From Promethearchaeota archaeon (GTDB lineage: Archaea > Asgardarchaeota > Lokiarchaeia > Sigyniarchaeales > SOKP01), in contig JAHLWP010000010.1 in the NCBI GenBank assembly GCA_019057865.1, forward strand, positions 32,001 through 96,000: a DNA stretch of 64,000 bases, written 5' to 3'. The position numbers were made by a program, and so were the translations under genes. Positions 30,620 to 32,460 of the stretch are shown piece by piece; position 1 is the stretch's first letter, and each line of letters begins with the position of its first letter. The notes beneath the pieces were generated by a model. That model saw only the letters and a list, made by a program, of their open reading frames with translations. It made no database searches and was not told the origin of the DNA.

Positions 30620-31114
30620 TTACTTCCCTCCTTCATATTCAGGTTTATTAATCCAGTTTTCATATTCATCTTCTGGAACAAAGAAGAAATCTGTCATTTT
30701 CCCTTCTCTTACTTTGTTAAAAACAGCTCTAACTCTTCTTCCTTTTTTAATCTTAGAAGGAACTAAATTTTCTGAAAAAATTCCTTGAAGTAATGCGGTT
30801 TCTGCTCCATCTAATTTTATAAAGCCTATACTATAAGGTACGGCTTTTATAAATGCAGAAGTTGTATACCATACAATTGTGCTAACTTCTATAGTTCCTG
30901 TTTGGTTCAATTCTACCCATTTAGCAGGAGCAAAACAATCAGAGCAATTGATCCTTGGAGGCATCCATGTCTTTCCACATTTAGTACATTTTGTGCCCAA
31001 TAGTTTTTTATTTTTCATTAATTCTAAAAAGAATTTGGATTGTCCTCCCATTGTGTATTTGTAGTTGATCCTTATTACATCTCTTATTTGATGCTCCTGA
31101 AATTCTTCGCTCAT
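30620..31114 (-). CDS. DUF35 (Zn-ribbon/OB-fold) protein
   Basis: KCTKCG..WMPPRINCSDC; its ATG overlaps the TGA of the spliced thiolase (ATGA, 31111-31114). Confidence 0.9.
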   Translation of the reverse strand: MSEEFQEHQIRDVIRINYKYTMGGQSKFFLELMKNKKLLGTKCTKCGKTWMPPRINCSDCFAPAKWVELNQTGTIEVSTIVWYTTSAFIKAVPYSIGFIKLDGAETALLQGIFSENLVPSKIKKGRRVRAVFNKVREGKMTDFFFVPEDEYENWINKPEYEGGK

Positions 31115-32460
31115 GGTTTTTTCAACCCCTCCTCATTTGTCATTACTATAACCGCAGCATATGCCGCTCCAGGGCCTCCTATTGAGTGAGCAATAGCTCT
31201 GCCATTTTCAATTGTTTTTATTTGATGCTTTCCAGCATCCTCTCTAAGCTGAAGTGCTGCTTCACCTGTAGACATTATCCCGGTAGCACCAACAGCATGA
31301 CCACATCCAATTAATCCACCGCAAGGGCAACATGGTAATTCACCATCTAACCATGGCCCCTCCCCTGGTTTTTCAAAGGATTTTTCAATCCATGGACCAC
31401 CTTCCCCAAAAGGAACAAACCCAAGCTCCTCATAAGAGATGACTTCTTATCCAGAGAATATCGAACTGATATTCATTGTCCTGAGAAGGCATCATGGAGC
31501 TCTGCTAAATCAATTTGTTCCTTTATTTTATTATAGTCTAAGCCTGCCATCTTATACGCGGCTTTTGCAGCAAAAATATTTGAATATAACCTTCCCATAT
31601 CTTCTCTATTTCCTATAAAACAATCGGTATTTGCTGCTGCGACACCAGTAATCCAAATCGGCTTTTCAATTTTTAATTCTCTTACTTTTTCTTCACTTGC
31701 GAGAATTAATGCTGCTGATGCTTCTGAATATAAACAACAATCAAGCATCTTGAAGGGATGACAAATTATCCTTGAGTATAGGACATCATCTAAGGAAATT
31801 TTCATAGGGGATTGTGCTTTTGGATTGAGCATAGCATTCCCATGGTTTTTTACGCTAACTTTAGCCAATTTTAACTAATTGTTAAGATTTAAAGCCATTT
31901 GTTCTTCGGTAGGATTACCGAATTCTTCATAATGGGCGTTTACCATAGAAACGTACGAGGTTGCTGCCATCATTCCCATAGGATATTTACGAAATATGTA
32001 GAACTTACACCATTTTTTCGTAAGTCATATCAGTAGAATAGGCGATGGCATTCAAAACTTCAGGTGTCGTAGTTCCTGTTTGTTCGTCATAGCAATCATT
32101 GCATTTTTCGACTCCTATACATAAACATAAGTCAGATAAGCCAGAAGCTACTTCTGCAAAAGCCATTCGGACAGTATATCCTCCTGTTGCTCCTCCTGTT
32201 GCTATACGAGTACCAGGTTTATTATTCATCCCTATATAGGAATTACAAAAAATATCTGGCATAAATTGTCTTTCAAATAGCTCATTATAGATTCCATATA
32301 CCGTAGATTGTAAATCCTTATGAGTTATTTCAGCACCGTTATTATTTGCGTCCTCAAGTGCTAATTTTGTTGCATCATATGCTAATTCAAAATATGTCTT
32401 ATCTAAATACTGGGCTTTAAAAGGAGTAATTCCTATACCTATAATCGCAACTTTCTTCAC
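31111..32460 (-). CDS. Thiolase superfamily protein, predicted four-exon gene (join 32460-32017, 31985-31891, 31860-31478, 31448-31111; 1260 nt, 419 aa)
   Basis: Removing three BHB-flanked inserts gives one ORF: ...DMTYE|YPMGMMAATSYVSMVNAHYEEFGNPTEEQMAL|VSVKNHG...ELHDAFSGQ|EVISYEELG...GGLIGCGHAVGATG...AHSIGG...KKP*. No other stops or frameshifts. Confidence 0.85.
31449..31477 (-). other. Putative BHB mRNA intron 3 (29 nt, phase 1)
   Basis: Outer helix CUUCU/AGAAG, central helix CAGG/CUGG (one A.G mismatch), bulges AC^A and AU^A, inner stem GAAUAUC/GAUAUUC; product GGA C|AA GAA. Confidence 0.78.
31861..31890 (-). other. Putative BHB mRNA intron 2 (30 nt, phase 2)
   Basis: Outer helix AAU/GUU, central helix GGCU/GGCU (two G-C, two G.U), bulges UU^A and AA^A, inner stem AAUCUUAAC/GUUAAAAUU (8 of 9 paired); product AUG GCU UU|A GUU. 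Confidence 0.85.
31986..32016 (-). other. Putative BHB mRNA intron 1 (31 nt, phase 0)
   Basis: Central helix UACG/CGUA, bulges AA^A and AA^U, inner hairpin; cutting after the second bulge nucleotide gives UAC GAA|UAU CCU. Confidence 0.8.

What the first reader, a model, noticed from the sequence alone, without database searches (positions are those of the whole stretch)
31861..31890. Intron 2: canonical h-B-H-B-h' motif with a discriminating prediction (Leu, not Lys, at the junction)
mRNA sense: CA AAU GGCU UU^A AAUCUUAAC AAUUA GUUAAAAUU GGCU AA^A GUU AGC. All BHB elements are present. The insert is a multiple of three but carries an in-frame UAG, so it must be removed. It is also bounded by a UGGCU direct repeat: deletion between the repeats would give QMA-K-VSVKN, whereas BHB splicing gives QMA-L-VSVKN.
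Basis: partly seen in the sequence, partly recalled or inferred. Interest (0 to 1): 0.88.

Follow-up and report, generated by a model that had tools for sequence, protein, structure and literature searches.

The report
tRNA-type mini-intron in Asgard thiolase gene
A 30-base insert that breaks a thiolase gene of a Lokiarchaeia (Asgard) archaeon has the shape of an intron cut by the tRNA-splicing enzyme. Comparison with 83 related genes supports removal from the mRNA at the predicted points, leaving a leucine codon; no RNA data were available.

Summary
No RNA data exist for this organism.

- **Gene:** bases 31861-31890 (minus strand) lie in a thiolase-family gene of a Promethearchaeota (Lokiarchaeia) MAG. 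The gene is broken by three inserts of 31, 30 and 29 nt.
- **Insert boundaries:** intronless orthologues lack exactly these bases.
- **RNA fold:** outer helix AAU/GUU, central helix GGCU/GGCU, bulges UU^A and AA^A, a 9-bp inner stem and a 5-nt loop.
- **Chance:** the fold alone is not significant in this AT-rich genome. A mirror-image fold that would give Lys scores equally well in this one sequence.
- **Comparison settles it:** six other genomes carry an insert at the same site.
  - The true central helix pairs in 28 of 28 cells, the mirror helix in 54%.
  - Four inner-stem pairs show compensatory changes.
- **Junction codon:** it is always UUA (Leu) or UAU (Tyr). The 76 intronless orthologues have Tyr (40) or Leu (27) there and never Lys.
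- **Closest relatives:** the three closest intronless relatives read TTA.
- **Selection:** dN/dS of the spliced frame is about 0.05.
- **Machinery:** the genome encodes two EndA paralogues and RtcB.

This scan has followed up the same phenomenon in other Lokiarchaeia genomes.

The parts
31861..31890 (-). Intron 2: 30-nt bulge-helix-bulge micro-intron, from the third nucleotide of bulge 1 to the second nucleotide of bulge 2. It contains the in-frame UAG at 31877-31875.
   Evidence: Sequence read. Exactly 30 nt are absent from intronless orthologues. BHB boundaries were located.
31893..31899 (-). Exon-2 half of the motif: outer helix strand AAU (31899-31897) and central helix strand GGCU (31896-31893). 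It lies over the codons CAA AUG GCU.
   Evidence: The central helix is paired in 28 of 28 cells across 7 carriers. The Ala codon is GCT in 7 of 7 carriers against 27 of 76 intronless orthologues.
31890..31892 (-). Bulge 1, UU^A. The 5' cut falls between 31891 and 31890.
   Evidence: Cut rule from PMC2738675.
31867..31889 (-). Inner intron hairpin h': 9-bp stem AAUCUUAAC/GUUAAAAUU with one C.A mismatch, and loop AAUUA.
   Evidence: fold; 90% of cells paired, and 4 pairs change on both sides among the 7 carriers.
31860..31866 (-). Intron-side central helix strand GGCU (31866-31863) and bulge 2, AA^A (31862-31860). The 3' cut falls between 31861 and 31860.
31857..31859 (-). Exon-3 outer helix strand GUU (the Val codon).
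   Evidence: 2 of the 3 pairs are invariant and paired. The Val codon is GTY in 7 of 7 carriers against 38 of 82 intronless rows (duplicate rows not removed).
31986..32016 (-). Intron 1 of the same gene: 31 nt, central helix UACG/CGUA, bulges AA^A and AA^U, weak outer helix.
   Evidence: Excision regenerates DMTYEYPMG as in the orthologues.
31449..31477 (-). Intron 3 of the same gene: 29 nt, outer helix CUUCU/AGAAG, central helix CAGG/CUGG with one A.G mismatch, bulges AC^A and AU^A.
   Evidence: Excision regenerates AFSGQEVIS as in the orthologues.
31108..32460 (-). Thiolase-family gene (Thiolase_N plus Thiolase_C_1) in four exons: 32460-32017, 31985-31891, 31860-31478 and 31448-31111, plus the stop codon. 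The spliced open frame is 421 codons, and GTG at 32460 is a possible start.
   Evidence: Pfam hits, spliced frame, dN/dS of 0.04-0.07 against orthologues.
30620..31132 (-). Downstream partner gene: DUF35/ChsH2-type Zn-ribbon and OB-fold protein. It is intact and immediately follows the thiolase gene.

Best explanation
Bases 31861-31890 are a bulge-helix-bulge (BHB) micro-intron in the pre-mRNA of a thiolase-family gene of a Lokiarchaeia (Asgard) archaeon.

**Proposed mechanism**
1. In the transcript, the exon sequence AAU-GGCU pairs with the intron's 3' GGCU and the exon-3 GUU. This gives a 4-bp helix flanked by two 3-nt bulges, closed by a 9-bp intron hairpin. The fold is shown from the sequence and supported by covariation.
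2. The heteromeric splicing endonuclease EndA cuts after the second nucleotide of each bulge (UU^A and AA^A). Its genes are present; the cutting itself is inferred.
3. RtcB joins the exons and probably circularises the 30-nt intron. Its gene is present; the joining is inferred.
4. The junction codon is UU|A, so the protein reads ...EEQMA-L-VSVKNH.

Together with the 31-nt and 29-nt sister introns, splicing restores a 421-codon frame. Without splicing, translation stops at the UAG inside intron 2.
For: **Insert boundaries**
- The window has exactly 30 extra nt relative to 11 same-genus orthologues with single 413-435-aa frames.
- An 89-row alignment (83 unique sequences) places an insert at this site in 7 of them.

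**The motif sits on those boundaries**
- Scores are H 4/4, h 3/3 and h' 8/9.
- A motif this good occurs about 8e-5 per position at this length in the genome, and only about 9 boundary positions are allowed.

**Seven carriers compared (alignment A1)**
- The central helix is paired in 28 of 28 cells.
- The inner stem has 4 pairs that change on both sides.
- Overall 90.9% of cells are paired, against 20-46% when the partners are slid.
- The mirror topology's central helix is only 54% paired.
- RNAalifold independently recovers the GGCU/GGCU helix, the 5' bulge and the hairpin.

**Family-level test**
- 30 micro-inserts at 6 sites in this gene family could be evaluated.
- At protein-restoring boundaries, a perfect 4-bp central helix is found in 24 of 30 for the BHB topology and 1 of 30 for the mirror.

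**Junction codon**
- BHB cuts give UUA in the window and L028. They give UAU in L031, L050, L053, L013 and L082.
- The 76 intronless orthologues have Y 40, L 27 and K 0.
- The window's sister sequences read TTA. The sisters of the UAU carriers read TAT or TAC.

**Exon-side constraint**
- The wobble base of the Ala codon is the fourth base of the central helix. It is U in 7 of 7 carriers and in 27 of 76 intronless genes.

**The gene is under selection**
- dN/dS is 0.067 against the closest orthologue, at dS of about 1.
- There is no other break in the gene.
- There is no second copy in the genome: the other matches are at most 42% identical.

**Machinery**
- Two EndA paralogues score over the Pfam cut-off. 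By eye, one keeps a Y/H/K-like pattern and the other lacks the His.
- RtcB is present.
- Asgard EndA is the (alpha-beta)2 type with the L1 loop, which accepts relaxed motifs (PMC5829648).

**The insert is real DNA**
- Contigs from independent metagenome studies hold it.
Against: - There is no RNA evidence of any kind, so cleavage, ligation and the junction are inferred.
- The fold is not thermodynamically unusual: the z-score is 0.0.
- Structure-only scans show no genome-wide excess of the BHB over the mirror topology.
- In this one sequence the mirror fold (GGC bulges, UUUA/UAAA helix) scores equally.
- The outer helix is only 3 bp including a U.G pair, and its third pair is unpaired in 4 of 7 carriers.
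- The central helix has two G.U pairs.
- The same-genus orthologues sampled first all have Tyr, not Leu. Leu rests on the gene-tree neighbours.
Confidence: 0.86

Rival explanations
1. The gene is a decaying pseudogene. The three roughly 30-nt inserts are DNA-level insertions, such as small palindromic elements with a TGGCT target duplication, that are never removed. The thiolase is not made.
For: - The gene is in four open pieces under table 11.
- Intron 2 is flanked by a 5-nt direct repeat that could pass for a target-site duplication.
- No RNA evidence for splicing is available.
Against: - dN/dS is 0.04-0.07 over dS of about 1 or more, with no other stop or frameshift.
- Inserts at the same site occur in 7 genomes spread over several clades of the gene tree. 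Their helices are maintained by compensatory changes.
- All three inserts sit exactly in BHB geometry.
- The direct repeat is a by-product of a self-complementary central helix (GGCU pairs with GGCU). It is absent at the other sites, for example UACG/CGUA, CUGG/CCAG and GAUG/CAUU.
- This is the only copy of the orthologue in the genome.
Confidence: 0.05
2. The insert is skipped by the ribosome, not spliced. This would be translational bypassing, as in phage T4 gene 60 or the yeast mitochondrial byp elements: peptidyl-tRNA-Ala takes off at GCU and lands on the second GCU 30 nt downstream, giving QMA-K-VSVKN.
For: - Matching GCU codons precede and end the insert, and a hairpin lies between them.
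- In five other carriers a UAA stop directly follows the take-off GCU.
Against: - The predicted residues (K in the window; I or N in the other carriers) are never seen among 76 intronless orthologues.
- L053 has GUU, not GCU, at the would-be landing codon.
- Introns 1 and 3 of the same gene have no matching take-off and landing codons that would restore the protein, yet they have BHB geometry.
- In the window the codon after GCU is UUA, not a stop.
Confidence: 0.03
3. The insert is removed from the RNA, but in the other register. Any cut pair inside the UGGCU repeat, for example through the mirror fold with GGC bulges, would give Lys.
For: - In the window sequence the mirror fold scores the same as the BHB fold: H 4/4, h 3/3, h' 8/9.
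- It is close to the single-sequence minimum-free-energy fold.
Against: - The mirror central helix is paired in only 54% of cells across the carriers, against 100% for the BHB helix.
- The mirror topology fits 1 of 30 inserts of the family, against 24 of 30 for the BHB topology.
- By established knowledge of tRNA position 37/38 introns, the bulge lies 3' of the central-helix strand. The mirror arrangement is not the known EndA substrate.
- Lys is never seen at this site, and the sister genes read TTA.
Confidence: 0.03
4. The 30 nt are retained and translated as a 10-residue insertion, with the UAG read through or recoded, for example as pyrrolysine.
For: The insert length is a multiple of three and it holds a single in-frame stop.
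Against: - No PylS scores over the family cut-off in a genome that is 99.7% complete.
- The homologous inserts in L013 and L082 are 29 nt. Other carriers hold UAA stops.
- Introns 1 and 3 shift the frame, so the gene needs RNA-level removal in any case.
Confidence: 0.01

Closest known systems
BHB intron in the cbf5 (pseudouridine synthase) pre-mRNA of Crenarchaeota (Watanabe 2002; Yoshinari 2006; Yokobori 2009, PMC2738675)
   Same: - It is an intron inside an archaeal protein-coding sequence.
- It is recognised through a (relaxed) bulge-helix-bulge motif by a heteromeric (alpha-beta)2 EndA.
- It is cut between the second and third bulge nucleotides.
- Its presence is patchy among related species, so it has been gained or lost.
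   Different: - The lineage is different (Lokiarchaeia, Asgard) and so is the gene (a metabolic thiolase-family enzyme).
- This gene has three introns, and its orthologue family has at least 7 insertion sites.
- The micro-format is uniform: 28-36 nt by alignment estimate, about 30 at this site. At this site the layout is a ~9-bp stem and 5-nt loop.
- Splicing of cbf5 is shown by cDNA and in vitro cleavage. Here it is inferred only.
Non-canonical BHB introns of archaeal tRNA genes, including the heavily interrupted tRNA genes of Asgard archaea (Marck and Grosjean 2003; PMC11291895; bioRxiv 10.64898/2026.10.13.758758)
   Same: - The motif, the cut rule and the EndA/RtcB machinery are the same.
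- Intron lengths are similarly short.
- In this genome aragorn finds only 18 tRNAs, 12 of them with introns. This fits the reported intron richness of Asgard tRNA genes.
   Different: - The host RNA is an mRNA.
[quoted passage not shown] GUU), not from a tRNA stem.
- That places a constraint on synonymous positions.
EndA-processed BHB in the 5' UTR of Haloferax volcanii HVO_1309 mRNA (PMC7714728)
   Same: An mRNA is a substrate of the archaeal splicing endonuclease.
   Different: That element lies in the untranslated leader and does not interrupt a reading frame.
Translational bypass elements (T4 gene 60; byp elements of Magnusiomyces mitochondria). This comparison rests on my own knowledge, not on a paper read here.
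   Same: - It is a short insert of tens of nt in a coding sequence, with a hairpin and matching codons at both ends.
- It is invisible in the protein.
   Different: - The bypass prediction (K, I or N) is contradicted by the orthologues.
- The matching codon is not conserved among carriers.

Membership tests
Archaeal BHB (splicing-endonuclease) intron | [quoted passage not shown] | tested here: met
   GGCU/GGCU flanked by UUA and AAA. The helix is paired in 28 of 28 cells in 7 carriers.
Archaeal BHB (splicing-endonuclease) intron | Flanking helices: an outer exon-exon helix h and an inner intron helix h'. | tested here: met
   h' is 9 bp (8 paired here) with 4 covarying pairs. h is only 3 bp (U.G, A-U, A-U) and its third pair fails in 4 of 7 carriers, so the outer side is weak or relaxed.
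Archaeal BHB (splicing-endonuclease) intron | Cutting after the second nucleotide of each bulge yields the functional mature RNA. | tested here: met
   It gives the 421-codon frame and codon UUA, which equals the TTA of the three closest intronless orthologues. The same rule restores the orthologue protein at introns 1 and 3.
Archaeal BHB (splicing-endonuclease) intron | The host encodes EndA and an RtcB-type ligase. | tested here: met
   Two PF01974 paralogues over the cut-off and RtcB at E 1.7e-168.
Archaeal BHB (splicing-endonuclease) intron | Excision and exon ligation observed in RNA (cDNA junction, circular intron) or in vitro cleavage. | not testable with these tools
   No RNA run holds the sequence. 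Only DNA contigs could be laid.
cbf5-type pre-mRNA intron (orthologous intron) | Located in cbf5, at the codon of the catalytic Asp. | tested here: not met
   The host gene is a thiolase-family gene. The element works like the cbf5 intron but is not a member of that orthologous intron set.
Translational bypass element | Matched take-off and landing codons, conserved, with the bypass product being the functional protein. | tested here: not met
   The landing codon is GUU in L053. The predicted K, I or N is absent from 76 intronless orthologues.
Transposon-like insertion with target-site duplication | Direct repeats flanking the insert at every copy. | tested here: not met
   The repeat appears only where the central helix is self-complementary. 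The other sites have UACG/CGUA, CUGG/CCAG and GAUG/CAUU.

The most novel reading that the evidence does not exclude
The ~30-nt BHB micro-introns are a proliferating and possibly mobile class of mRNA introns in Lokiarchaeia.
- They are gained repeatedly at BHB-compatible sites of ordinary protein genes. This one thiolase family has at least 7 sites, and 19 of 83 unique orthologues are interrupted.
- They may move between alleles. Intron 2 is 63-93% identical among carriers whose third codon positions are saturated at 43-61% identity, and the carriers are scattered over the gene tree.
- If so, routine and obligatory mRNA splicing by the tRNA-splicing machinery would exist in the closest archaeal relatives of eukaryotes.
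Probability: 0.35. Interest if true: 0.92.

Novelty: new variant of a known kind. Interest (0 to 1): 0.8.

Why it matters
**What the literature held here says**
- Endonuclease-dependent splicing of archaeal protein-coding sequence is documented essentially for one gene, cbf5 of Crenarchaeota.
- One 5'-UTR case is also known in Haloferax. PMC7714728 said so in 2020.
- I found no paper on such introns in Asgard protein genes.

**What this case adds**
- An ordinary metabolic gene of a Lokiarchaeon needs three such excisions to be translated at all.
- Its orthologue family shows many insertion sites, with presence and absence varying between genomes.

**Consequences if confirmed by RNA data**
- Gene callers systematically mis-annotate such Asgard genes as fragments or pseudogenes.
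- mRNA splicing is part of normal gene expression in the archaeal lineage nearest to eukaryotes.
- Intron gain and loss can be studied at fine scale in prokaryotes.

**This intron as a test case.** The two candidate mechanisms predict different residues, and the comparative data already favour the BHB junction (Leu).

Tried and rejected
- **RNA evidence.** The look-up of sequencing runs listed no RNA holder. The cDNA test could therefore not be run, and this blank says nothing about expression.
- **Folding energy.** The 66-nt region is no more stable than shuffles, z = 0.0. Energy is useless as a criterion in this 30% G+C genome.
- **De novo genome-wide BHB scans.**
  - A first script timed out.
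  - Three further scans gave equal counts for the true and the mirror topology: 19465 vs 19383, 18898 vs 18570 and 28 vs 22. These used coding-rescue filters or a strict 9-bp stem.
  - No genome-wide count of mRNA introns could be derived this way. Gene boundaries and chance AT hairpins dominate.
- **My own first hand parse.** I used the wrong helix order (bulge 5' of the central helix) and got Lys. I rejected it after checking the tRNA 37/38 logic, the cut rule in PMC2738675, introns 1 and 3, and the comparative counts.
- **Rfam and aragorn on the window.** Nothing was found.
- **tblastn as an insert detector.** It reads through in-frame 30-nt inserts and misses them, so I replaced it with a DNA alignment.
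- **Pyrrolysine reading of the UAG.** No PylS scores over the cut-off.
- **RNAalifold.** It recovers the central helix, the 5' bulge and the hairpin. It draws the 3' side as one extra pair plus a 1-nt bulge, not a 3-nt bulge. This is partial support only.
Full report
**1. What is there**

The finding lies on the minus strand, inside a thiolase-family gene. The gene has Thiolase_N and Thiolase_C_1 hits and is followed by an intact DUF35/ChsH2 OB-fold gene at 30620-31132. Under table 11 the thiolase is in four open pieces.

The in-frame UAG (31877-31875) and the UGGCU direct repeat are both present.

**2. Organism**

- The 80 related loci fetched from genome contigs are almost all titled Promethearchaeota or Promethearchaeia MAGs, that is Lokiarchaeia of the Asgard archaea.
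- The window is part of a 4.26-Mb, 87-contig genome that is 99.7% complete.
- G+C is about 30%.

**3. The insert is defined by orthologues**

- In 16 of 18 same-genus genomes searched there is an orthologue at 84-90% amino-acid identity. Eleven were fetched, and each has a single open frame of 413-435 aa.
- A DNA alignment shows three window-only inserts of 31, 30 and 29 nt. The 30-nt one is at the finding.
- The genome has no second copy of this orthologue. Its other thiolase-like matches are at most 42% identical.

**4. Which fold, and which junction**

The BHB motif has a defined order on each strand: outer helix, 4-bp central helix, 3-nt bulge, inner helix. This follows from the classic tRNA 37/38 intron. 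There, nucleotide 38 is the last base of the 3' bulge and abuts the anticodon stem. The cut falls between the second and third bulge nucleotides (PMC2738675).

| Element | Sequence |
|---|---|
| Outer helix h | AAU/GUU |
| Central helix H | GGCU/GGCU (two G.U pairs) |
| Bulges | UU^A and AA^A |
| Inner stem h' | 9 bp, one C.A mismatch |
| Loop | AAUUA |

The intron is then 31890-31861 and the junction codon is UU|A, Leu.

I first parsed the motif in the mirror order (GGC bulges, UUUA/UAAA helix), which gives Lys. A scan confirms that in this single sequence both topologies score identically. Neither is thermodynamically special (z = 0.0). Genome-wide, chance motifs of either topology are equally common, about 700 per length class. 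The single sequence therefore cannot decide. The motif's coincidence with the ortholog-defined boundaries is improbable: about 8e-5 per position times about 9 allowed positions.

**5. Comparative test**

*Carriers.* An alignment of 89 rows (83 unique sequences) shows micro-inserts of about 28-36 nt by alignment estimate, at 7 or more sites. Nineteen unique sequences carry at least one. The intron-2 site is occupied in seven: the window, L028, L031, L050, L053, L013 and L082.

*Pair counts.* On their alignment (A1):
- The BHB central helix is paired in 28 of 28 cells.
- The inner stem has four pairs that change on both sides. For example, the L053 stem differs from the window's at five of its nine 5'-strand positions and is 9 perfect base pairs.
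- Overall 90.9% of cells pair, against 20-46% for slid controls.
- The mirror central helix pairs in only 54% of cells.
- RNAalifold recovers the GGCU/GGCU helix, the 5' bulge and the hairpin on its own.

*All sites of the family.* Thirty inserts could be evaluated. I restricted boundaries to those that restore the orthologue's protein. A perfect 4-bp central helix then occurs in 24 of 30 for the BHB topology and in 1 of 30 for the mirror. That one is this window's intron 2.

*Sister introns.* The same rule fits both, and each excision reproduces the orthologues' protein.

| Intron | Window coordinates | Central helix | Restored protein |
|---|---|---|---|
| 1 | 31986-32016 | UACG/CGUA | DMTYE\|YPMG |
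| 3 | 31449-31477 | CAGG/CUGG | FSGQ\|EVIS |

**6. The Leu versus Lys prediction**

| Sequences | Junction codon from BHB cuts |
|---|---|
| Window, L028 | UUA (Leu) |
| L031, L050, L053, L013, L082 | UAU (Tyr) |

- In the 76 unique intronless orthologues the residue is Tyr 40, Leu 27, Phe 3, Cys 2, His 2 and Met 2. Lys, Ile and Asn are never seen, and those are the residues the repeat-deletion or bypass reading would give.
- On the gene tree the window's sister is L056, followed by L049 and L025. All three are intronless and read ATG GCA TTA GTA.
- L028's neighbours (L044, L030) have Leu. The intronless neighbours of L031, L050, L013 and L082 checked have TAT or TAC. L053's neighbour L039 has TTC (Phe).
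- The junction codon therefore largely tracks the local phylogeny, as expected for a precisely spliced intron.

**7. Exon-side signature**

- The Ala codon's wobble base is the fourth base of the central helix. It is U in 7 of 7 carriers but in only 27 of 76 intronless genes.
- The Val codon ends in a pyrimidine in 7 of 7 carriers against 38 of 82 intronless rows.
- The window's sisters have GCA and GTA where the window has GCU and GUU.
- The carriers are not fully independent, so these are indications and not P-values.

**8. The gene is alive**

- The spliced frame is 421 codons.
- dN/dS is 0.067 against L056 at dS of about 1, and 0.035-0.047 against three of the four more distant orthologues compared; dS was saturated for the fourth.

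**9. Machinery**

- Two EndA paralogues score over the Pfam cut-off. One is 200 aa with a Y/H/K-like pattern. The other is 207 aa and lacks the His. Both readings are my inspection, so this point is inference.
- That fits the (alpha-beta)2 enzyme with the L1 loop reported for Asgard archaea, which accepts relaxed motifs (PMC5829648).
- RtcB is present.
- No PylS is found over the cut-off, so UAG is a stop.

**10. The DNA is real**

- Contigs of an independent 2015 marine-sediment study match pieces of the gene exactly, including intron 1 and the edge of intron 2.
- A contig of a third study covers 31680-31911, across intron 2, with 3 mismatches. It has only 21 nt on the far side, below the tool's own 31-nt bridging criterion.
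- Another study holds a roughly 90%-identical relative that lacks exactly 30 nt at 31862.

**11. What is not shown**

No RNA run holds the sequence. Cleavage, ligation, intron circularisation and the timing relative to translation are all inferred.

**12. Comparison with what is known**

- The mechanism is that of the cbf5 pre-mRNA intron of Crenarchaeota (PMC2738675) and of non-canonical tRNA introns.
- The element is not a member of the cbf5 intron set, because the gene and the lineage differ.
- Asgard tRNA genes are known to be heavily interrupted (PMC11291895; bioRxiv 10.64898/2026.10.13.758758). Here aragorn finds only 18 tRNAs, 12 of them with introns.
- In the library I could search, no paper describes BHB introns in Asgard protein genes. 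PMC7714728 stated in 2020 that cbf5 was the only coding case.
- Notes of this scan report the same kind of micro-intron in other genes of this genome and, with follow-ups, in other Lokiarchaeia genomes. I did not test those.

**13. Verdict**

- This is a new variant of a known kind: a uniform ~30-nt micro-intron format, several introns per gene, in ordinary metabolic genes of an Asgard archaeon.

Noticed in passing
L013-L092 orthologue loci (alignment); window introns at 31986-32016 and 31449-31477: The thiolase orthologue family carries micro-inserts of about 28-36 nt (alignment estimates) at 7 or more sites: after reference nt 32, 376-379, 441, 454-457, 531, 538 and 917-921. Nineteen of 83 unique sequences are interrupted, and L013 has four inserts.
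   Followed up: partly
L043, insert after reference nt 531: L043 has a 34-nt insert only 7 nt upstream of the intron-2 site, with its own BHB-like fold (GCAA/UUAU helix, 3 of 4 paired). It may be an independent gain next to the same site or a shifted intron.
   Followed up: no
A1 alignment; Intron 2 is 63-93% identical among carriers whose third codon positions are only 43-61% identical. The carriers sit in five or six separate clades of the gene tree, next to intronless sisters. This means either many precise losses or lateral spread between alleles; I could not decide which.
   Followed up: partly
window 31865-31894 (minus strand): In the window sequence alone a mirror-image pseudo-BHB (GGC bulges, UUUA/UAAA helix) scores the same as the true one. 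It is close to the single-sequence minimum-free-energy fold. This is a trap for motif finders that ignore helix order.
   Followed up: yes
whole genome G000: Aragorn finds only 18 tRNA genes in a genome that is 99.7% complete, and 12 of them have introns. Most tRNA genes are probably too interrupted to be recognised.
   Followed up: no
window 31986-32016 and 31449-31477: Introns 1 and 3 share the same 5-nt loop, AGUUC, although their stems are unrelated. Intron 2 and its homologues have loops A-A/U/G-U-U-A or UUUUA.
   Followed up: no
window 32150-32200 (minus strand), protein stretch ...TRIATGGATGGYTVRMAF: Where SCPx-type thiolases usually carry the nucleophilic cysteine, this protein reads GGATGG by eye. 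An earlier scan note (e1-4757953) reports cysteine-less thiolase-like paralogues with DUF35 partners elsewhere in this window. I did not test this.
   Followed up: no
window 31217-31219: There is a one-codon insertion in the window's exon 4 relative to the 11 same-genus orthologues. It is an ordinary in-frame indel.
   Followed up: no
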